A DNA stretch of 10,367 nt, taken from IMG/VR virus record IMGVR_UViG_3300032893_000479, positions 1 to 10,367 of that record. The stretch is one strand, 5' to 3'. This stretch comes from a virus. Its lineage: Duplodnaviria > Heunggongvirae > Uroviricota > Caudoviricetes. This document shows, piece by piece, positions 1 through 9,454 of this stretch. The notes under the pieces are model-generated. The model made no database searches and was not told where the DNA came from. It saw only the letters and a list, made by a program, of their open reading frames with translations. Every line of letters begins with the position of its first letter. Position 1 is the first letter of the stretch. The translations under genes and the position numbers were made by a program.

Positions 1-831
1 TCATATGTAACCCTCCCGCCGCCCTTCAACCGTATTGTAAAACGGCACGTCTCTATTAGCGATATCGAAATCGACTTTGAAAATAATGAATTTACCATTG
101 CAGCCCGGATTAAATTTGCTGTCGATAGTCAGTCGGCCGCCCAATTTTGTTTTTGGATCAAGCAAATATTTTACGCGCACGCCGTGCTCAGTTTGTTCAG
201 GAACACCGATCATTCCGCTGTTGGCGCTCAATACGTGCTCAACATTTTGCAACGGTTTTCCAACGTCTTTGACATACAACGTACCGTCTTCCACGAACGC
301 GTTAACATTGGCAATTTGATTTAATTTGCCCACTTGACGAATCGTCGCGCCTGCGAATTGATAATTTTCAACGTTCGTATCCGTCGCTTGGAATACTAGT
401 CCGACGCCAATATCCGACGCGATCCGAGCCGCTAGCGTGGACAATTTAATTGTTGACAGCATCGATCGTGCAACGATTGCGCCTGTTGCAAATTGATTGC
501 TAATAGCGCTCATTGTCAACGCTATTTCTGGCGGCTGACTTGCCTGAGCCCGCTGTATATCACCGCTGAACAATCTGTAATACCCCGTACTAGATCGTCC
601 AGCTTCGATAATCAACCGTTTTGGCGATCGCAAGAAATTGTAGGGGGTGACTTGCGTTAGAATATAATTGCGCACGTCGGCCGCGAGATTGTAAATAGTA
701 ACTGTAGCCTCGTTATTCAATTCGTTGGCGTACAGCGTGCCGCGCGCAACAATACGCAAATCATCGTAGTAGCGCATTTGCCCGTCGATTTGTATTCCGA
801 CGCGCAGCAAGCGATCGTCGAAGCTACCCAT
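1..831 (-). CDS. Hypothetical protein (276 aa), candidate baseplate hub / distal tail protein by position
   Basis: Complete ORF with ATG at 829..831 and stop TGA at 1..3. Third gene after the TMP in the same orientation. Function inferred only from synteny. Confidence 0.4.
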   Translation of the reverse strand: MGSFDDRLLRVGIQIDGQMRYYDDLRIVARGTLYANELNNEATVTIYNLAADVRNYILTQVTPYNFLRSPKRLIIEAGRSSTGYYRLFSGDIQRAQASQPPEIALTMSAISNQFATGAIVARSMLSTIKLSTLAARIASDIGVGLVFQATDTNVENYQFAGATIRQVGKLNQIANVNAFVEDGTLYVKDVGKPLQNVEHVLSANSGMIGVPEQTEHGVRVKYLLDPKTKLGGRLTIDSKFNPGCNGKFIIFKVDFDIANRDVPFYNTVEGRREGYI

Positions 832-1144
832 TGCGCAAATTCTCCAACTCGGCGCCAGTCATGAATAACAAAAAATGCGTCGTTCCGAATTTTGTATAAT
901 CAGGATATTCCAGATTGGTATCCCAGTAGAAATTGCCGTAGCCGGCTTCAAGGTACCGATAAGGCAAAATACCTGTTATGGGCATGCAACGTGTATTTTG
1001 TATTAAGGTTATGCCGTCGCGAATAACGGTTGAAAACATCATACCCGACTCAATCGTTCGCAACGTGATGTCGTACCTCACGTTATCGAACGTGATCGTA
1101 AAATTCTGATTTGGTAATTGCTGAAGCGGTATATTTTGCGGCAT
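824..1144 (-). CDS. Hypothetical protein (106 aa), probable tail/baseplate-associated component
   Basis: ATG start overlapping the upstream stop by 1 nt (TAATG), and overlapping the downstream gene by 8 nt. Coding is supported by operon context. No motif recognised. Confidence 0.4.
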   Translation of the reverse strand: MPQNIPLQQLPNQNFTITFDNVRYDITLRTIESGMMFSTVIRDGITLIQNTRCMPITGILPYRYLEAGYGNFYWDTNLEYPDYTKFGTTHFLLFMTGAELENLRNG

Positions 1145-1635
1145 TAGTAAAAAATCCTATGCAATATAGATTCGCTGCCACTTTGTTCGCCGCGCTTTAC
1201 CGTAGACTGATCGGTAGGTTTGCGAACATTGTTTGCCGCCAATTGTTGAAATTGCGCTTTAACAAATATTGCTTGTTTCAAATTGATAACGATTTTAATT
1301 GTTTTCCACAATTCCGGTTCTTCCTCATGCGGCATGCTAACGATAATCATATCCTGATACACATCGGACCGCGTTTGCACGATGAGCTTATCGCCGCTAA
1401 TCCAACGTTGCTTAATCGCAGCGTAAACGTCTTTAGCGTCATTTCCCGGTATCATCACGATCAAATCTATTTCCACCGGATCGATCACGCGGGCGTCCGT
1501 GATGCTGATTCCACTTTCTAGCGGATGTTCGAACGATCTGGACGTTTCGAAAATAGACGCGCGCATTGCTTCCGATGTCGGAAACAATTGCGTGTAATCC
1601 GCGTCATATAGACCAACAATTTCTTGTTCTGTCAT
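1144..1635 (-). CDS. Hypothetical protein (163 aa), probable tail/baseplate-associated component
   Basis: ATG start overlapping the TMP stop (ATGA). First gene after the TMP, where distal tail or baseplate initiator proteins are normally encoded. Acidic composition. No motif recognised. Confidence 0.4.
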   Translation of the reverse strand: MTEQEIVGLYDADYTQLFPTSEAMRASIFETSRSFEHPLESGISITDARVIDPVEIDLIVMIPGNDAKDVYAAIKQRWISGDKLIVQTRSDVYQDMIIVSMPHEEEPELWKTIKIVINLKQAIFVKAQFQQLAANNVRKPTDQSTVKRGEQSGSESILHRIFY

Positions 1636-3197
1636 GCCATCAGCCCGTCATCGTGTTGATAGATAGCGCTGTTGATATACAACTTTAAGGCGTCGCTGAT
1701 ATTTTGCGCCACTTCGTTGGCATCTTTCGCTTCGGTTATTACGTCGATTTTATCGATGCTGATTGAATTTTGCTGACTACGAGCTGTCGCCATATTTGTG
1801 ATCGAAGATGATGTCTGCGGCAGCAGCGGATTACGCGACATCATTGCTAATTGTTGTTGCGCGTTATTTGTCAGCGGATTTTCTATTTGCGGTAAATCAA
1901 CGGCACCGCTTTCTGGATTGAACATATCTTTAAATTTTTGCCATATTTCAGGTATTTTTGAAATTTTATCAACAACGAAATTGAAAACTTTTTGGACCCA
2001 GTTGAAATAAACTTCCCACGCTTTTGATGCAAACTCAGCGGCACTCGCGGCAGCTTCGCCAAACCATCGCAGCGCCTGCGCAGTTTTCGGAAAGCGTTTT
2101 TCCAGTTTGTCCAAAAATTTATCCATGCTTGCGCCAGCAGTTTCTAATGCGGCGCTAAAGCCTTTTGTAAAAACATCTGATAAGAAGTCGGCAACGATAC
2201 CGATCCATTCTTTCAAATATTTAAAAACTTCGACAACTTTATCGATTGCCTCTTTAAACAACGGATATTTTTTTGCCAACTCACCGATCACGCTTGCGTG
2301 ACCGTTTAAATACGCATTGAAATCGTCCCAAATAAGCGCGGCGGCGGCGGCCACTGCAATCAACGCCATCCACGGGGCGAGAAATGCAATGGTTGCAATC
2401 GTCGCTCTAACGAGCGCTGGAACAAGGATTCCCGATAATGCAACGCCAAGCGATACAAAAAATTTCGTCATGAATGCGCTGTTGTTTCGCATCCACATCA
2501 ATATTTTTTCCAGCAGTTTGAAAAACTCGGTGAGATATGGCATTACCGCCACGGCAAGCCGACGCTTGATATCTTCAAAAACTAAGTTCGTCATGCGTTG
2601 CTGAATCACGAACTTAGTTGAAATTTCGACTTGTTCTTTTGTTACAACGCCAAGTTCTTTTTGTTTGGCAATGAATTCGTCTAGCGCTTTGCCGCCCATT
2701 TGCAGCAGATTGATCGTGCCGATATCGAGACCGAAACGCTCGCCCAATCGTTGCGCTTGAATTTTGCTAAGCCCTTCGAATCTTCCCTGTATCTGCTTCA
2801 GCGTTTCGATAGGGTCGCGACCGTAACGACTCAATGCTTCAAGACTGCGCGCAAATCCTTCCGCCGTGCCGCCTGCTAGCTCCGCAGCCTGTGTCCACGC
2901 GCTATACTGCTCCGCCGATACTTTTGCTTGTTGCGCGTTTAGCCCGAGCTGTCGCGTGCTTTCAGCAACGTCGAATACCATCGATTTCAGGGAATGAAAT
3001 GCGAGAAAGCTCGCACCGAGCGACGCCGCACTTTTAACGGCATCGACAAGGTGCTTGCCGAGCATGTCGGCCGCTTTATCGGTTTTATTGAGGGTGTCGC
3101 CGAGTTGTTTGCTTTGCTTATCGGAATGCGCAAGCCCTTCGTCCAGTTTGCTGGCGTCGGATTCGAACAGGAAGTAAAAAACGTCGAGAATATTCAC
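1632..3197 (-). CDS. Tail tape measure protein (TMP)
   Basis: 521-aa ORF immediately 3' of the chaperone/frameshift pair. Predicted largely alpha-helical, with a long central hydrophobic segment (approx. residues 246..290, FFVSLGVALSGILVPALVRATIATIAFLAPWMALIAVAAAAALIW) typical of TMPs, plus regularly spaced aromatic residues. Apparent start is GTG at 3195..3197, preceded by AGGA at about 10-nt spacing. The stop overlaps the next gene as ATGA. Confidence 0.8.
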   Translation of the reverse strand: MNILDVFYFLFESDASKLDEGLAHSDKQSKQLGDTLNKTDKAADMLGKHLVDAVKSAASLGASFLAFHSLKSMVFDVAESTRQLGLNAQQAKVSAEQYSAWTQAAELAGGTAEGFARSLEALSRYGRDPIETLKQIQGRFEGLSKIQAQRLGERFGLDIGTINLLQMGGKALDEFIAKQKELGVVTKEQVEISTKFVIQQRMTNLVFEDIKRRLAVAVMPYLTEFFKLLEKILMWMRNNSAFMTKFFVSLGVALSGILVPALVRATIATIAFLAPWMALIAVAAAAALIWDDFNAYLNGHASVIGELAKKYPLFKEAIDKVVEVFKYLKEWIGIVADFLSDVFTKGFSAALETAGASMDKFLDKLEKRFPKTAQALRWFGEAAASAAEFASKAWEVYFNWVQKVFNFVVDKISKIPEIWQKFKDMFNPESGAVDLPQIENPLTNNAQQQLAMMSRNPLLPQTSSSITNMATARSQQNSISIDKIDVITEAKDANEVAQNISDALKLYINSAIYQHDDGLMA

Positions 3198-3756
3198 TAT
3201 CGATTATTCCTGTTCGCATGCTCTGCGGCTAAGTATTCGTTGGCGCGCCGTACAATCAGAACCTCCGCCATATCACAGAGGTCTTGCAACGTGTAGACCG
3301 TGGCCAGCTCATGCGGCGTCGCTAATCTTTCGCCGGTGACTGCGCCCGCAATTGGGTCAACATTTGCGTAATCAATGCTTGGAACTTGCCCGAGAATTGA
3401 TCGAGGTAATGTGACAGCGCGCCTTTCGCGAAAAAACTGCAATTGTATTCCATCATTGCCCACTCGATCCGTATCAGCGCCTCGTAATCTGGTACATGGT
3501 TGTTGATGAGATCGAGAGAACCCAACCGCAGAGGGTCGGCGCCCGCAATGGGCACCGCAACATGCGACAGAATTTTTATCATCAGCGCTTCGTTAGTTTT
3601 GTAGTCGCCAATTTTCGGCGCGGCAGTCAGCGGATATTGCGTGACAATTTCACGACCTGCCGTTGCCGAAAATTTACTGATGATAAAAATTTTTTCCGAT
3701 CCGTCCATGAGCTTTATCGGTTGTTCTTTTGGCTGTAGCAGCGGAAGATGATTCAT
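3197..3756 (-). CDS. Tail assembly chaperone, long form produced by programmed -1 frameshift (approx. 186 aa: frame 0 from 3756 to the slippery site, then -1 frame to 3197)
   Basis: Frame-0 codons AGT TTT TTC (plus coordinates 3438..3430) give, after a -1 slip, CAG TTT TTT CGC..., which continues open for 77 codons to a TAG at 3197..3199 that overlaps the TMP start. The -1 frame ORF has no credible independent start (the track's start is a GTG in the middle of the chaperone gene with no RBS). Confidence 0.55.
3322..3756 (-). CDS. Tail assembly chaperone (short, in-frame form; gpG/gp E-like role)
   Basis: 144-aa ORF immediately 5' of the tape measure gene. An overlapping ORF (3197..3463) in the -1 frame runs from inside this gene to exactly the TMP start, and a T_TTT_TTC slippery heptamer lies in the overlap. 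This is the conserved chaperone frameshift architecture of tailed phages. Confidence 0.65.
   Translation of the reverse strand: MNHLPLLQPKEQPIKLMDGSEKIFIISKFSATAGREIVTQYPLTAAPKIGDYKTNEALMIKILSHVAVPIAGADPLRLGSLDLINNHVPDYEALIRIEWAMMEYNCSFFAKGALSHYLDQFSGKFQALITQMLTQLRAQSPAKD
3430..3436 (-). other. Putative -1 programmed ribosomal frameshift slippery heptamer T_TTT_TTC (X_XXY_YYZ)
   Basis: Plus-strand gaaaaaa at 3430..3436 is TTTTTTC on the coding strand, positioned as T TTT TTC relative to the chaperone frame. It lies in the overlap between the chaperone ORF and the -1 frame extension ORF. A short GC-rich palindrome (CGCG AAAGG CGCG) follows immediately but is a weak and atypically close stimulatory element. 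Confidence 0.55.
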
Positions 3757-4199
3757 AGTGCGGACACCTTATTTTCGAATGCGAAAATGTAGGGCTTTGA
3801 CTTCATGCGCCCCTGACTCGCAACAGGATTGCCCGGAATGGCCGACGTGATAGCCCCTTTCGACAAAGTGATCACATTGCCGCTCGGGTAAACCAGCGTC
3901 AAAGTTATGATATCGCGTGCGGGCCGCTTGCCTGCGGCAACACGATTCGCCTCCGCAATAATGCCGAGCGCGATATCGTCGAGCGAACCGGGCACCACGG
4001 CCAGCGTTGCCATGATGGGGTTAGGCTTTGACCATGTGATCAAATTGCCGTTGAGCCCCATTGCAGTTTGCGCCAGCTCCAAGGCTGCGATATCGAGCGG
4101 ATCGATATCGTCGGCGAACTGCGTGATAGGCACGCCGACCGGAAAAGTAACGCTAGCCTTAACCGTGGCGATTAGACCAAAACCTGAAATATCGGACAT
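3753..4199 (-). CDS. Putative tail tube protein
   Basis: 148-aa ORF with ATG start and a good RBS, positioned between the putative sheath and the tail assembly chaperone. Size and position are typical of myovirus tube proteins. The final 4 nt overlap the chaperone start (ATGA). Confidence 0.55.
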   Translation of the reverse strand: MSDISGFGLIATVKASVTFPVGVPITQFADDIDPLDIAALELAQTAMGLNGNLITWSKPNPIMATLAVVPGSLDDIALGIIAEANRVAAGKRPARDIITLTLVYPSGNVITLSKGAITSAIPGNPVASQGRMKSKPYIFAFENKVSAL

Positions 4200-4215: not shown

Positions 4216-5730
4216 TTAGATTAAGTTGTGAGTGCCTTCGACTTTGCGGATCACGTCATCTTTCGAATAGATCAGCAAATACGTTGCTTTATAGATGGTT
4301 TGATTGTTGACGACTTCCGGCACGATAACGACATTGTACCAGTAGCCAATGCCTTGCACTTGTTGCCAAGCGTTGCTATCACCGCTCTGCAACGCAATAT
4401 CGGCCTTTTGCAACGGCGTAAGCACTTTGCCGATGCTAATTGTACCGTTGAACAGTGCTTGATCTACGCCGTCTTGAAGTAGATTGAGGCATATCGAGCG
4501 ACCGGCTTCGTCAGCATCGATTTTCGGCAGCACCAGCAACGCGTTCATGAACGACGCAGTGAGATACGACGACAACCACTGTTCGTTGCCGTAAACGTTT
4601 TGATCTGCCGGCGACGTATTCGGACCAAACAGCGAACCGCGCTGATAGAAAGATACGTTCTGACCGTTGATCTGCGTGTTACCGTAATAGTTAACGCGAA
4701 TCGCATCCAGCGAGTCCGACGTGGGCGTATCGGTAACCAATGCGGTCACCGGAAATTGTTGGAACATATAGTTGGACGTTGAATTTTGTTTCGTGTAGTC
4801 CGTTGCCGCAAGCTGAATCATCGGAATCATTTCCGGGTATTCGTTCGGATAATTTATCGGATCGTTTATCGTCATGGCGGTCCCCGCGATTTGACCGATC
4901 GCAGACGCGATTACCGACGCAGACGCTTGATCACAGGCGAGCATGAATTGGTACGAGACACTATTTGACGCGTTCCATTCTACAATTTCTGCCCAATCGC
5001 CTATGTCCGTAGTTGCCATGAACAAAAACGAACCGTAATTATTACTTATCTGATCTGCTGCAATAACTGCATCTAATGCCGACGAACCAGCCGTGCCGAC
5101 AACATCGATTGCGCCATCCGCAACGTACAGATTTAGCAAATTTCCAACATCGGTAGCACCTGAGCCGGCCTGTAAAAATGTAAGTGAACCTGCGCCCGCA
5201 ACACCGCCAACAACAACGAATCGATTATTCGTCGAATCGTAGGTTACCGTGCAAGTGGTCAGCTGCGGATCGGAGTTCGTTCGCAAACGCGTTTGCAACA
5301 ACGAAGCAATGTTGGCGTAGCTAGTGGCAGTCGAGAAATTGATGCTACCGATTGAGATAGGGCCGCCACCAGTGCTTACCGATACGGTACCGGCCGTAGT
5401 GGAAATAAGGCCGCTCAGAGCAGTCGGCGATTTTCCGCCGAATACACGGGCAGCAAACGCGTTCGGCTGCCAGCCAGCAAAACAAATCTTTTTCGCCTGG
5501 GTTAGCTGTTTGGAAACCCAGCCAAAATAAAACGCTGCACGACGATACTCTTCTGATGAAGTGCCAAAGAATGCGGCAACATCATCTACCGATGTGTATT
5601 CGATGATGTTATCGGTAGATACTAACGGATTGCTAGTAAAAATTCTTCCGATAAGCTCGCGCACTTGCACAATAGCCGAACCGCCGACACCAGACCGAAT
5701 ATCAACATATTTGCGGTAATTAATGGACAT
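4216..5730 (-). CDS. Putative contractile tail sheath protein (DUF3383-like by recollection)
   Basis: 504-aa ORF with ATG start and a strong RBS. Located directly 5' of a ~150-aa tube-sized gene, then chaperone/frameshift and tape measure, which is the canonical myovirus order sheath-tube-chaperone-TMP. Size is typical of phage sheaths. Contains a G/S/T/A-rich low-complexity internal region. Family assignment was not verified by search. Confidence 0.6.
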   Translation of the reverse strand: MSINYRKYVDIRSGVGGSAIVQVRELIGRIFTSNPLVSTDNIIEYTSVDDVAAFFGTSSEEYRRAAFYFGWVSKQLTQAKKICFAGWQPNAFAARVFGGKSPTALSGLISTTAGTVSVSTGGGPISIGSINFSTATSYANIASLLQTRLRTNSDPQLTTCTVTYDSTNNRFVVVGGVAGAGSLTFLQAGSGATDVGNLLNLYVADGAIDVVGTAGSSALDAVIAADQISNNYGSFLFMATTDIGDWAEIVEWNASNSVSYQFMLACDQASASVIASAIGQIAGTAMTINDPINYPNEYPEMIPMIQLAATDYTKQNSTSNYMFQQFPVTALVTDTPTSDSLDAIRVNYYGNTQINGQNVSFYQRGSLFGPNTSPADQNVYGNEQWLSSYLTASFMNALLVLPKIDADEAGRSICLNLLQDGVDQALFNGTISIGKVLTPLQKADIALQSGDSNAWQQVQGIGYWYNVVIVPEVVNNQTIYKATYLLIYSKDDVIRKVEGTHNLI

Positions 5731-6709: not shown

Positions 6710-7245
6710 TTGCTGCCAACCTCGCTTGTTAGCGTGGCAATCATATGGTCGCTATCGTTCAGCGGCTTATCGCTGACGCCGCTATAATCTGGTGGATTCG
6801 GCCCCTTGAGCGCTGCCGCCGCTTCGCCGACAGTCTTCCCGGTAATTTTGCGCCCTTGTCTGCGCCATAAACGCAATACCATCGTAATGGGCGACAAAGG
6901 CGGTGTAAAAATGTTGGATAATGTTTGAAGAATATCGCCTTCGGCCTGTTGTGCAACGCCTTTCAAAACATCTTCAACGGTCAATTCGCCGCGCATAGCC
7001 ATTGCTGCACCTTCGCCCATTAACTTTTTCCATTCTTCGCCGCGCTGCGCTTCCGTTGTGCGCATGAATGAGCGCGAGCCACCGTCGCGAAATTCCTGTA
7101 TCGCCGCCACGTAGGCCACGGGGGTGCCGTCCTCGTATTTTGCAGACTCAAACCAACCGACACGCGATGCCAACTTGCTGAGCTTTCTGCTTTCTCGCTC
7201 GAATCTCAGCCGTGAGGCAGTTTTCTTATGCACCAATTTGCCCAT
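6706..7245 (-). CDS. Putative head-tail joining / head closure protein (HK97 gp10-like)
   Basis: The ORF track begins at a TTG (7246..7248), but the second codon is ATG (7243..7245) and overlaps the upstream stop as TGATG, so I place the start at 7245 (179 aa). The segment RVGWFESAKYEDGTPVAYVAAIQEFRDGGSRSFMRTT resembles the HK97 gp10 family pattern. Basic N-terminus. Position fits a neck gene. Confidence 0.45.
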   Translation of the reverse strand: MGKLVHKKTASRLRFERESRKLSKLASRVGWFESAKYEDGTPVAYVAAIQEFRDGGSRSFMRTTEAQRGEEWKKLMGEGAAMAMRGELTVEDVLKGVAQQAEGDILQTLSNIFTPPLSPITMVLRLWRRQGRKITGKTVGEAAAALKGPNPPDYSGVSDKPLNDSDHMIATLTSEVGSK

Positions 7246-7688
7246 CAAAAACTACCGCCAAATTTGCGGAAGCCTGCGCGCTCGCAGCTGCCGCCAATAT
7301 AAAAACCGCCTGACGATTTGACGCTGAAAAAAGCCCACAAACGCATGCCGTATGGCGTCAGAGATAGCCATTGCTGCCACGCATTTTTAACGGGTGGCGC
7401 TTGCACGGTGACGCTAACCTTATCGATCGATGACGCAGTGACCGCGCCGACTTGGCCTTGACCGCGCTGCGCGTTGAGATTTGCTTGCCACTGCATCATG
7501 TGAGCGGTCATCAAATAAAGCGCCTCGGTGATTTCTGCCGCGCTCATCAGACACCATTCCTGCGGATACAGATAAACTTTCGCCGTATCGAAATACGCTT
7601 GTATATAGGCGTCGGAATACGCCGAAGTGCTGGCGAATGCCGGAAATTCTGCGCGAAAATCTGCAATGACAATAACAATATCGCTCAT
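7245..7688 (-). CDS. Putative head-tail adaptor/connector protein (DUF4054-like by recollection)
   Basis: 147-aa ORF with ATG start and 4-nt ATGA overlaps to both neighbours. Small protein between a head-proximal gene and the neck genes. The N-terminal sequence (MSDIVIVIADFRAEFPAFAS...) resembles the phage adaptor family I recall as DUF4054; this was not verified by search. Confidence 0.45.
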   Translation of the reverse strand: MSDIVIVIADFRAEFPAFASTSAYSDAYIQAYFDTAKVYLYPQEWCLMSAAEITEALYLMTAHMMQWQANLNAQRGQGQVGAVTASSIDKVSVTVQAPPVKNAWQQWLSLTPYGMRLWAFFSVKSSGGFYIGGSCERAGFRKFGGSF

Positions 7689-9454
7689 GATTTTAACCCG
7701 TAAGCCGGTTTGACTCCCGAATAGTTTATCGTGTTTTCGTTCGAATAGACGGGGCTTTTGTAATTTTGCTCAGGAATCAAAATAGGCGGCGTGTAATTGT
7801 TGTCGAAAGTATCGCTAAACAACGACAAAGCGCGAGTGCGCAATCCGTTCAATGGTACGTAAAGGGGATCGCCGATTGTGTAAACGCCGTACCCCACCGC
7901 AGTGGCAGAGTCTTGATACAAACAAATTTCAGCTGCATTAAAACCGGAATAAATTGCGCTAATGTACAAATTAGAATACACGGCACCGGCTTCGCTTGGC
8001 TCAGTAACACATGCCGAAGAAAATACCGCACCCGAGCGAATAGCGCTAAGCACTCGGTTTTCGCAAGTGTACGTACTAGTTTTGAGCTGCCATCCGTTCG
8101 CGTAGCAATAAGCCGCAAGAGCGTCCCAAATTTGACGCATGCTCAAACCTTGCCACACCAATGAAAAACTTGTCGTCGTACCGTCTGCTTTTAGCACGAT
8201 GTTAGTCGTTGTCAAATCAATTTTTGCTGCCGTCGACGGTCCGCGCACGCCGAAAGTGGCTACGTAATTGCCGAGTTCATTTTTTATTTTTACTTGCATG
8301 ACGGGGCTGTTGCCAGCCGAATAATAGTTATTCCATTCGGCATCTTCGCTGCTGTCCCAACCGGCGACAATATTGCTGCCGGTCTGGATGTCGCCAGCTG
8401 CAAGGGGTGTCGTCCAACATACGCCTATCGGAAATAATGGCGCGGCCGGAGTGCTGGTGTGGAACACTGCGATGGCACCGAGCGCATATGAATAATCTGC
8501 AGCGACTTCAGCGGGACGATGCGGACCGTAATAACTATCGTCGAGCACCGCGCGCATGAATACGCCGCTGGTCGGCACGAAGCCGTCATTTCCGGGCGCT
8601 TCTATTGCGCCCGGACCTTCGTCGGGAAATATGCTCGGCGGATTGCCGCGATAGTATTGCGCAAGCCTGTCATCCAGATAGTACGGATAATTATCGATAA
8701 ATAAATTTTCTGTTTGTCGTCCGTTGCGATCGACGATGTTCGGAATGTTGAATTTCGGCGGTAAATGCACGGCAAGCGTGGTCACCCACGCTTGCCGGTA
8801 CGTCTGCGAGTAAAGTTTTGGAATACTCGTTCGATTTAATTGTTCGGCAGCAATGCTGCGATCGATGATACCTTTTGCAAAAGTCTCATCGTAGTTTGTC
8901 GATACCGGCATGTTGAAAACAGATACAACATCAAGCGGTGTCGTGTACGGGTGCAAATATTTTTGCGGATTGACTTCGACCATGAACGCGGGCAGCGTCG
9001 GCTTCGGACTGATCGGCAAATTTTGCAAATTGGCGTTTGCTTGCGCCTGCGTAGGATCAGGATTTGCAACAATGCCGACAGTAGAAATGTTTGGATTTGC
9101 TGCGATGTAATCGGAAATTTTGAAAAGATTTTTGCAGATCACTGAATTGGTCAAATCGCCAATACCGGGCAAATAAGGGAAATCGATCGCAGGACAAGTG
9201 CCAATGAAAAGAATAACTTTCAGGCCGCCTGCGACAGGATGATTAATCATCGTATCGAGAAAAGTTTTAACATCGGCCCACGTAGTCAATCTTGCCGATG
9301 TATCCAATGCGCCGGACAATAGTAATTTGTTTTGCGCGGGAACGTTGCGTTGCGCCATGTAATAATTGAGCACATCGACAGCGGCCGGCACTGACGAACG
9401 TGCGACAACGAGAATATCCGCAGGCGTGATAGGCACGGGGGTGATGATCGCCAT
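7685..9454 (-). CDS. Large hypothetical structural protein (589 aa); candidate major capsid or head decoration protein by position, function unknown
   Basis: Long uninterrupted minus-strand ORF with ATG start at 9452..9454, preceded by GGAG (plus coordinates 9463..9466) at 8-nt spacing. Sits immediately 5' of the putative head-tail adaptor gene and overlaps it as ATGA. Composition is N/S/T/Y/G/P-rich. I recognise no motif. Confidence 0.5.
   Translation of the reverse strand: MAIITPVPITPADILVVARSSVPAAVDVLNYYMAQRNVPAQNKLLLSGALDTSARLTTWADVKTFLDTMINHPVAGGLKVILFIGTCPAIDFPYLPGIGDLTNSVICKNLFKISDYIAANPNISTVGIVANPDPTQAQANANLQNLPISPKPTLPAFMVEVNPQKYLHPYTTPLDVVSVFNMPVSTNYDETFAKGIIDRSIAAEQLNRTSIPKLYSQTYRQAWVTTLAVHLPPKFNIPNIVDRNGRQTENLFIDNYPYYLDDRLAQYYRGNPPSIFPDEGPGAIEAPGNDGFVPTSGVFMRAVLDDSYYGPHRPAEVAADYSYALGAIAVFHTSTPAAPLFPIGVCWTTPLAAGDIQTGSNIVAGWDSSEDAEWNNYYSAGNSPVMQVKIKNELGNYVATFGVRGPSTAAKIDLTTTNIVLKADGTTTSFSLVWQGLSMRQIWDALAAYCYANGWQLKTSTYTCENRVLSAIRSGAVFSSACVTEPSEAGAVYSNLYISAIYSGFNAAEICLYQDSATAVGYGVYTIGDPLYVPLNGLRTRALSLFSDTFDNNYTPPILIPEQNYKSPVYSNENTINYSGVKPAYGLKS

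What the first reader, a model, noticed from the sequence alone, without database searches (positions are those of the whole stretch)
3197..3756. Programmed -1 ribosomal frameshift in the tail assembly chaperone (G/GT-like), with slippery heptamer T_TTT_TTC at 3430..3436
The 144-aa chaperone ORF (3322..3756) and a -1 frame ORF (3197..3463) overlap by 142 nt. The -1 frame ORF ends exactly at the TMP start and has no believable start of its own. Inside the overlap the coding strand reads AGT TTT TTC in frame 0, a canonical X_XXY_YYZ slippery heptamer on which Phe-tRNAs can re-pair to TTT TTT in the -1 frame. The predicted products are a 144-aa short form and a roughly 186-aa long form (first ~109 residues shared, then 77 residues from the -1 frame). 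The slip site is unusually far upstream (about 75% through the gene, against the last few codons in lambda G), and the downstream element is only a short CGCG/CGCG palindrome abutting the heptamer, so the stimulatory structure and the efficiency are open questions.
Basis: partly seen in the sequence, partly recalled or inferred. Interest (0 to 1): 0.6.

Follow-up and report, generated by a model that had tools for sequence, protein, structure and literature searches.

The report
Conserved tail-chaperone −1 frameshift site
This is an ordinary but real case of the ribosomal frameshift that tailed phages use to make two versions of a tail-assembly chaperone, and the same slippery sequence is kept in about 150 related phages and prophages.

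Summary
All genes are on the minus strand, in the order sheath, tube, 144-aa ORF (3756..3322), a −1 ORF ending at 3197, then the tape measure gene. T_TTT_TTC (3436..3430) is in frame. A −1 slip there gives a 186-aa product.

The heptamer alone is not beyond chance. Conservation is:
- Of 157 homologous loci, 155 carry T_TTT_TTN at the same codons (83 of 85 after dereplication).
- The Ser codon ends in T in 82 of 83 (20.5 expected). The first Phe codon is TTT in 84 of 85 (44.7 expected).
- The −1 frame stays open 72–83 codons in all 156 complete loci. It encodes a conserved peptide and usually ends on the tape measure start.
- In 54 of 85 loci it has no start codon of its own.

Burkholderia phage BcepB1A already annotates E/E′ at the identical heptamer, so this is a new member of a known kind.

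Two details need correcting. The CGCG palindrome is not conserved, and no conserved downstream RNA structure exists. The early slip site (35 codons before the stop, against 6–7 in lambda and P2) is a family trait. It lies at the end of the confidently folded chaperone domain, and selection keeps the zero-frame tail open.

The parts
3322..3756 (-). Short chaperone form ('G'/'E'-like), 144 aa. Residues 1–109 form the shared chaperone domain. Residues 110–144 are a tail found only in the zero-frame product.
3430..3436 (-). Slippery heptamer T_TTT_TTC, covering the third base of Ser107 and the codons of Phe108 and Phe109.
   Evidence: Conserved as T_TTT_TTN in 155 of 157 loci and in 83 of 85 dereplicated loci. 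Ser codon NNT in 82 of 83 against 20.5 expected; Phe108 TTT in 84 of 85 against 44.7 expected. The T is kept even where Ser is replaced by Arg (CGT, L076) or Gly (GGT, L082). U_UU.U_UU.Y is among the efficient motifs in E. coli (PMC4066793).
3197..3430 (-). −1-frame segment ('T'/E′-like): 77 codons plus the TAG stop. It can only be read after the slip.
   Evidence: Matches phrog_3976 (7e-12) and the C-terminal parts of phrog_4774 and phrog_20369 'tail assembly chaperone'. The fused product aligns with phrog_20369 colinearly across the junction, 78–183 against 86–191 of 195. tblastn finds 28 phage records, with 49% identity to BcepB1A E′. The motif ATLxELxTxYTLEDAFDLWE..RYNE.LA is conserved, and third-position diversity is 0.65 against 0.43 and 0.40 in the non-overlapped part.
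3322..3429 (-). Dual-coding overlap: 35 zero-frame codons plus the stop, which also encode the first 36 codons of the −1 segment.
   Evidence: Codon-position diversity changes at the heptamer from 0.32/0.20/0.57 upstream to 0.45/0.46/0.49 downstream. The zero frame is open for at least 35 codons in 85 of 85 loci, against 23.6 expected when the −1 frame is recoded synonymously.
3448..3451 (-). GGAA, 11 nt upstream of the heptamer. Many relatives have GGAG here, a possible weak Shine-Dalgarno-like stimulator. This is tentative.
   Evidence: GGAG is present in 29 of 85 loci. The Glu codon is GAG in 38 of 56 against 21.7 expected. The window has only GGAA.
1632..3197 (-). Tape measure protein gene, 521 aa. 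Its GTG start overlaps the −1-frame stop (TAGTG).
   Evidence: Matches phrog_34923 and other tape measure families. In relatives the −1 stop overlaps or abuts the next long ORF's start, at −4 or −1 nt in 41 of 68 scored loci.
3753..4199 (-). Tail tube gene, immediately upstream of the chaperone. The two ORFs share 4 nt (3753..3756).
   Evidence: PF22764 E217_Gp32, 7.8e-56.
4216..5730 (-). Tail sheath gene.
   Evidence: PF11863 (8e-102) and phrog_205 tail sheath.

Best explanation
The window carries the tail module of a contractile-tailed phage similar to E217, Pam3 and BcepB1A.

Most ribosomes translating the gene between the tube and tape measure genes read straight through ...Ser-Phe-Phe. 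They stop at the TAG at 3324..3322 and make a 144-aa chaperone.

A minority slip back one base when the two tRNA-Phe sit on UUU (P site) and UUC (A site) of U_UUU_UUC. Both can re-pair with UUU UUU. These ribosomes then read 77 more codons in the −1 frame. They stop at the TAG at 3199..3197, which overlaps the GTG start of the tape measure gene. The result is a 186-aa long form with the same 109-residue chaperone domain and a different C-terminal domain.

By analogy with lambda G/GT and P2 E/E+E′, I infer that the shared domain coats the tape measure protein. I also infer that the −1 domain recruits the tube protein, and that the slip rate fixes the ratio of the two forms.

Shown here: the site, its frame, its conservation, coding in both frames, the lack of an independent start, and the chaperone fold. 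Inferred: that slippage really occurs, how often, and what each form binds. The slip seems to depend on the heptamer alone, or on a weak upstream SD-like element in some relatives, because no conserved downstream RNA structure exists.
For: - Gene order is sheath, tube, chaperone, tape measure.
- The heptamer is in frame and the fused product is 186 aa.
- 155 of 157 homologous loci carry T_TTT_TTN at the same codons, and 83 of 85 after dereplication below 85% nt identity.
- Synonymous sites are fixed far beyond codon usage.
- The −1 frame is open 72–83 codons in 156 of 156 complete loci, against a median of 11 for the +1 frame.
- The −1 peptide is conserved and shows a third-position excess.
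- The coding periodicity changes exactly at the heptamer.
- In 54 of 85 loci there is no ATG, GTG or TTG in the −1 frame between its upstream stop and the heptamer. In 7 loci a −1-frame stop lies two codons upstream of the slip point; in those read directly (e.g. L019, L021) it is a TAG abutting the T run.
- The −1 stop overlaps or abuts the tape measure start.
- The fused product matches a tail assembly chaperone PHROG across the junction.
- The model has the chaperone fold.
- BcepB1A annotates gp15 E and gp15′ E′ at the identical TGCAGTTTTTTCGCGAAAGGC.
- P2 uses T_TTT_TTG at the equivalent gene.
- U_UU.U_UU.Y is an efficient −1 motif in E. coli (PMC4066793).
Against: - No protein or ribosome data exist for this phage or, as far as I found, for any member of this family. 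The BcepB1A annotation is itself a prediction.
- The window has no stimulatory structure: fold z-scores are −0.07 and +1.27, RNAalifold gives 0 pairs on 60 sequences, and Rfam has no match. Efficiency could therefore be low.
- The heptamer string alone is no rarer than chance in the window.
- The loci are phylogenetically related, so the counts overstate the number of independent events.
Confidence: 0.92

Rival explanations
1. Transcriptional slippage. RNA polymerase stutters on the run of six T and adds one extra U to some transcripts. Ordinary translation of those mRNAs then gives the same long product.
For: The site is a homopolymeric T run of 6 (7 in 21 of the 85 dereplicated loci). UUUUUUU is under-represented in E. 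coli genes, partly attributed to transcriptional slippage (PMC4066793). The protein outcome would be the same, so sequence analysis cannot fully separate the two mechanisms.
Against: - The run is only 6 long in 64 of 85 loci (T_TTT_TTC, A or G). From general knowledge, efficient bacterial slippage needs about 8–9 or more identical bases.
- The seventh base follows the ribosomal rule (Y in 81 of 85) rather than extending the run.
- The register relative to the reading frame is fixed.
- The equivalent P2 site T_TTT_TTG is annotated as a translational frameshift.
Confidence: 0.04
2. There are two separate genes. The −1 ORF is translated on its own from an internal start (GTG 3463 or TTG 3442) as an independent protein of about 80 aa.
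For: The ORF lister finds a GTG start at 3463. PHROG families of about 67–72 aa (phrog_3976, phrog_4625) show that annotators sometimes call such ORFs as stand-alone genes.
Against: - 54 of 85 relatives have no ATG, GTG or TTG at all between the nearest upstream −1-frame stop and the heptamer, and 77 of 85 have no ATG.
- Peptide conservation and the change in codon periodicity start at the heptamer.
- The fused product aligns across the junction with chaperone families of 170–195 aa.
- No promoter-like site lies in front of the −1 ORF; the one sigma-70-like match (3707..3680) is in the 5' part of G and within chance, 1 found against 1.3 expected.
Confidence: 0.02
3. There is no recoding. The −1 ORF is a non-functional overlapping frame and the heptamer is a by-product of a conserved Ser-Phe-Phe motif.
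For: S-F-F is invariant at the protein level. In-frame slippery heptamers are common in the window, 13 in 13 genes.
Against: - Codon choice is fixed well beyond what the amino acids require (82 of 83 and 84 of 85 against 20.5 and 44.7 expected). It holds even where Ser is replaced.
- The 40-odd codons downstream of the G stop carry a conserved peptide with a third-position excess.
- These codons are homologous to annotated chaperone C-termini.
Confidence: 0.02

Closest known systems
Burkholderia phage BcepB1A gp15 E / gp15′ E′ ('pre-tape measure frameshift protein', AY616033)
   Same: It is a direct homologue: 52% identity for the short form and 49% for the −1 segment. The gene order is the same (sheath gp17, tube gp16, E/E′, tape measure gp14). 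The context TGCAGTTTTTTCGCGAAAGGC is identical, and E′ is annotated as starting in the same heptamer. The slip is also 35 codons before the E stop.
   Different: In BcepB1A the −1 stop lies 47 nt before the tape measure start instead of overlapping it. Overall DNA similarity is limited to 148 bases around the slip site. That frameshift is a prediction in the record, not an experiment I could find.
Phage P2 E / E+E′ (myovirus tail chaperone frameshift)
   Same: It is a contractile-tailed phage with the gene between tube (FII) and tape measure (T). It uses a −1 slip on a T-run heptamer, T_TTT_TTG. The −1 stop overlaps the tape measure start.
   Different: The P2 slip is about 7 codons before the E stop, against 35 here. 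E is 91 aa, against 144. I detected no sequence similarity.
Phage lambda G / GT (Levin 1993; Xu, Hendrix & Duda 2004, 2013, 2014, as summarised in PMC5009743)
   Different: Lambda is a siphovirus and its heptamer is G_GGA_AAG. The overlap of G and T is 19 nt, so the slip is about 6 codons before the stop, and G and GT differ by only a few residues at the G end. Here the short form keeps its own tail of 35–52 residues, which selection maintains.

Membership tests
G/GT-type tail assembly chaperone with conserved −1 frameshift (Xu, Hendrix & Duda 2004) | The gene pair lies between the major tail or tube gene and the tape measure gene, on the same strand. | tested here: met
   Tube at 4199..3753 (PF22764), chaperone at 3756..3322, tape measure at 3197..1632.
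G/GT-type tail assembly chaperone with conserved −1 frameshift (Xu, Hendrix & Duda 2004) | The second ORF overlaps the first in the −1 frame and lacks a start of its own. | tested here: met
   142-nt overlap. In the window the only candidates are a GTG and a TTG. No start codon at all in 54 of 85 relatives.
G/GT-type tail assembly chaperone with conserved −1 frameshift (Xu, Hendrix & Duda 2004) | An in-frame X_XXY_YYZ slippery heptamer lies inside the overlap. | tested here: met
   T_TTT_TTC at 3436..3430, codons 107–109.
G/GT-type tail assembly chaperone with conserved −1 frameshift (Xu, Hendrix & Duda 2004) | The heptamer and the open −1 frame are conserved among homologues. | tested here: met
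   155 of 157 loci, and 83 of 85 dereplicated. The −1 frame is open 72–83 codons in all complete loci.
G/GT-type tail assembly chaperone with conserved −1 frameshift (Xu, Hendrix & Duda 2004) | The N-terminal domain has the tail assembly chaperone fold. | tested here: met
G/GT-type tail assembly chaperone with conserved −1 frameshift (Xu, Hendrix & Duda 2004) | Two proteins are made in a fixed ratio, both are needed for tail assembly, and neither is in the virion. | not testable with these tools
   Needs proteomics, reporter assays or genetics.
−1 PRF signals with a downstream stimulatory hairpin or pseudoknot (IS3/IS911 type, coronavirus type) | A stable structure, conserved or covarying, lies 5–9 nt after the heptamer. 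| tested here: not met
   Window fold z-scores are −0.07 and +1.27. RNAalifold gives 0 pairs on 60 sequences. The CGCG palindrome pairs in 36% of cells, equal to shuffles. A weak purine/UUUCUU helix pairs in 78% against 74% and is absent in the window. The family-wide energy percentile is only mildly low. No Rfam match.
dnaX-type −1 PRF with an upstream Shine-Dalgarno-like stimulator | An SD-like sequence lies 6–17 nt upstream of the heptamer. | tested here: inconclusive
   GGAG sits 11 nt upstream in 29 of 85 relatives, and GAG is enriched at that codon (38 of 56 against 21.7 expected). The window has only GGAA.
Programmed transcriptional slippage | A long homopolymer run, typically 8–9 or more (general knowledge). 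| tested here: not met
   The run is 6 T in the window and in 64 of 85 relatives, and 7 T in 21.

The most novel reading that the evidence does not exclude
This family may be a distinct sub-type of chaperone recoding. The slip occurs at a domain boundary 35–52 codons before the stop. The short and long forms therefore carry alternative C-terminal modules, encoded in a 105–156-nt stretch that selection keeps open and coding in both frames. Frameshifting would work from the heptamer alone, with no RNA structure, in hosts from Enterobacterales to Planctomycetes, Cyanobacteria and Gastranaerophilales. That would make it a natural model for structure-independent −1 frameshifting, and for a chaperone whose short form has a function the long form lacks.
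Probability: 0.4. Interest if true: 0.4.

Novelty: new member of a known kind. Interest (0 to 1): 0.25.

Why it matters
The practical value is in annotation. The 77-codon −1 segment is missing from the gene calls of the source contig, where a 124-nt gap is left. It is also unannotated in the two relatives whose feature tables I read, phages Lbo240-yong2 and KLEP17-4. In the remaining GenBank hits only a 'hypothetical protein' or nothing lies under the match, and only BcepB1A records the frameshift.

The family gives a very clean comparative signature: one heptamer fixed at synonymous sites across 85 diverged lineages in several bacterial phyla. That could serve as a benchmark for frameshift predictors. 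It could also serve as a test case for −1 slippage without a downstream structure. It does not change what is known about tail assembly.

Tried and rejected
- **Downstream stimulator.** I folded 50 and 97 nt after the heptamer and found nothing better than shuffles. I ranked the 40-, 60- and 90-nt windows after the heptamer in 85 loci against other windows of the same loci. The shift was only mild (median percentile 0.34–0.42), and the window itself ranked 0.42–0.81. RNAalifold on 60 sequences gave no pairs. Rfam gave nothing.
- **Direct family assignment of the short form.** Pfam and PHROGs gave no hit, and a profile search of PDB sequences gave nothing meaningful. Only the fold comparison placed it.
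- **Near-identical DNA in GenBank phages.** None found; only a 148-bp match to BcepB1A around the slip site.
- **Independent start for the −1 ORF.** Rejected.
- **Chance significance of the heptamer.** The motif count alone is not significant, so the argument rests on conservation.
- **Not done.** I ran no further search on the −1 domain alone or predict its structure. The tools would not accept the fused or locus-derived sequences needed for a useful alignment.
Full report
**What is in the window.** All long ORFs are on the minus strand and form one tail module:
- collar, gateway and terminator proteins similar to E217 gp28 and gp29
- sheath at 5730..4216 (PF11863, phrog_205)
- tube at 4199..3753 (PF22764, 7.8e-56)
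- a 144-aa ORF at 3756..3322 with no Pfam or PHROG hit
- a 125-nt stretch with no zero-frame gene
- a 521-aa tape measure ORF at 3197..1632
- Dit-like, Pam3-gp18-like and E217-gp41-like baseplate genes

The source is a 22.7-kb metagenome contig. Its gene calls leave 10436..10559 of locus L004 empty, and that gap is exactly the −1 segment.

**Checking the observation.** On the minus strand the sequence reads ...GAA TAC AAT TGC AGT TTT TTC GCG AAA GGC GCG... Counting from the ATG at 3756, AGT, TTT and TTC are codons 107–109. So T_TTT_TTC at 3436..3430 is in the X_XXY_YYZ register. Reading 3756..3430 in frame 0 and 3430..3197 in the −1 frame gives 109 + 77 = 186 residues with the junction NCSFF/RERRAV. 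The −1 stop TAG (3199..3197) shares its G with the tape measure GTG. Every number in the finding is right.

The motif alone is not beyond chance. TTTTTTC occurs 5 times in the window against 4.5 expected. The 13 genes contain 13 in-frame X_XXY_YYZ heptamers, although this one has the longest −1 ORF behind it.

**Relatives.** The −1 peptide matches phrog_3976 and the C-terminal parts of phrog_4774 and phrog_20369, which is named 'tail assembly chaperone'. The fused 186-aa product aligns with phrog_20369 colinearly across the junction, residues 78–183 against profile positions 86–191 of 195.

tblastn finds the −1 peptide in 28 GenBank phage records. The best is Burkholderia phage BcepB1A at 49% identity. 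That record annotates gp15 E ('pre-tape measure frameshift protein') and gp15′ E′ ('alternative C terminus'). E′ starts in the identical context TGCAGTTTTTTCGCGAAAGGC, and the gene order is the same: sheath, tube, E/E′, tape measure. A cyanophage (Lbo240-yong2) and a Pseudomonas phage (KLEP17-4) have AGTTTTTTC and AGTTTTTTT at the same place, but no annotation of the −1 part.

**Comparative test.** A protein search gave 188 homologues of the short form, all about 140–155 aa. Scans of viral and genome collections gave 151 more loci. Their hosts include Yersinia, Proteus, Morganella, Providencia and Xenorhabdus. They also include Mycoavidus, Mycetohabitans, Bartonella, Planctomycetes and Gastranaerophilales.

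- In 157 loci the homologous N-x-S-F-F/L codons carry T_TTT_TTN in 155. After dereplication below 85% nt identity the count is 83 of 85.
- The Ser codon is AGT or TCT in 82 of 83, against 20.5 expected from each locus's own codon usage. The first Phe codon is TTT in 84 of 85, against 44.7 expected.
- Where Ser is replaced by Arg (CGT) or Gly (GGT), the T is still kept.
- The −1 frame is open for 72–83 codons in all 156 complete loci. The +1 frame has a median of 11.
- The −1 stop overlaps or abuts the start of the next long ORF in most loci.
- The −1 peptide is well conserved (ATLxELxTxYTLEDAFDLWE..RYNE.LA). Downstream of the zero-frame stop it shows third-position diversity of 0.65, against 0.43 and 0.40 at positions 1 and 2.
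- Codon-position diversity in the zero frame is 0.32/0.20/0.57 in the 27 codons before the heptamer and 0.45/0.46/0.49 in the 25 after it. The second frame therefore becomes coding right at the heptamer.
- In 54 of 85 loci there is no ATG, GTG or TTG in the −1 frame between its nearest upstream stop and the heptamer. In seven loci a −1-frame stop lies two codons upstream of the slip point; in those read directly (for example L019 and L021) it is a TAG abutting the T run. The −1 domain can only be reached by changing frame, and only at or just after the heptamer.

**The early slip site.** In lambda the G/T overlap is 19 nt, and in P2 the annotated slip (T_TTT_TTG) is 20 nt before the E stop. 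Here the slip is 35 codons before the stop, and 35–52 across the family. This is a family trait, not an anomaly. The zero frame stays open for at least 35 codons in 85 of 85 loci. Only 23.6 would be expected if the −1 peptide were kept and its codons redrawn at random. Selection therefore keeps a tail specific to the short form, and the 105-nt overlap is truly dual-coding.

**Stimulators.**
It pairs in 36% of alignment cells, the same as shuffles.
- The 50 and 97 nt after the heptamer fold no better than shuffles, with z-scores of +1.27 and −0.07.
- RNAalifold predicts no pairs on 60 sequences.
- A weak purine/UUUCUU helix seen in many relatives pairs in 78% of cells against 74% for shuffles, and does not form in the window.
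- The family-wide folding energy after the heptamer is only mildly low.
- Rfam has no match.
- Upstream, GGAG lies 11 nt before the heptamer in 29 of 85 loci. GAG is over-used at that Glu codon, 38 of 56 against 21.7 expected. This fits an SD-like stimulator within the 6–17 nt range used by Sharma et al. (PMC4066793). The window has only GGAA.
- U_UU.U_UU.Y is among the efficient heptamers in E. coli and gives more than 0.1% slippage without stimulators. The family uses Y at position 7 in 81 of 85 loci.

**Mechanism and rivals.**
- *Best explanation (0.92):* tandem −1 slippage of two tRNA-Phe on U_UUU_UUC. It yields a major 144-aa form and a minor 186-aa form that act as in lambda G/GT and P2 E/E+E′ (roles summarised in PMC5009743). 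The binding roles and the efficiency are inferred.
- *Transcriptional slippage on the T run (0.04):* it cannot be excluded from sequence. The run is short and the seventh base follows the ribosomal rule.
- *Independent initiation (0.02):* contradicted.
- *A non-functional overlap (0.02):* contradicted.

**Verdict.** The finding is real and correctly interpreted, but it is a new member of a known kind, and its closest phage relative already carries the annotation. Interest is modest. The points worth keeping are the very clean synonymous-site signature across distant hosts, the absence of any downstream structure, and the long dual-coding overlap that gives the short form its own C-terminal tail.

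Noticed in passing
L153:2833-2845 (Escherichia sp. E1V33 prophage): This is one of only two loci without the T run. It reads TCT TTC TTC GAA AAG. The −1 frame is still open for 77 codons and still encodes the conserved peptide. The A_AAG tetramer two codons downstream could be a relocated slip site.
   Followed up: partly
L105:2809-2815 (Singulisphaera sp. PoT chromosome): The T run is shifted by one base relative to the frame (TCG TTT TTT CGC, i.e. G_TTT_TTT). Only the A-site tRNA can re-pair perfectly. The −1 ORF is intact at 79 codons.
   Followed up: no
window 3448..3451 and the same position in relatives: Many relatives have GGAG 11 nt upstream of the heptamer, and GAG is over-used at that Glu codon (38 of 56 against 21.7 expected). 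This may be an SD-like stimulator. The window has GGAA.
   Followed up: partly
window 869..875 (−), in the Pam3-gp18-like gene 824..1144: An in-frame T_TTT_TTG lies 15 codons before the stop and has a 50-codon open −1 frame behind it. It is probably chance, and I did not check it in relatives.
   Followed up: no
window 7326..7332 (−), in gene 7245..7688: This is a second in-frame T_TTT_TTC, with a 24-codon −1 ORF. It has no obvious meaning.
   Followed up: no
L004:10436-10559; L002:2661-2760; L003:2646-2757: The −1 chaperone segment is left as an unannotated gap in the source contig's gene calls. The same is true of GenBank phages Lbo240-yong2 and KLEP17-4. Among the 28 GenBank hits, only BcepB1A annotates the frameshift.
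   Followed up: yes
window 7685..9454 (−); L004:3194-6072: Two large ORFs (369 and 589 aa) lie between the capsid genes and the E217-gp27-like gene. Neither has a precomputed Pfam family in an otherwise well-annotated E217-like structural module.
   Followed up: no
loci L088–L100, L095–L097, L102, L105, L110, L137–L148: The same chaperone module with its heptamer occurs in prophages of very distant hosts. These include endofungal Mycoavidus and Mycetohabitans, bee-gut Bartonella, Planctomycetes, Gastranaerophilales (Melainabacteria), Muribaculaceae and Eubacteriales MAGs.
   Followed up: no
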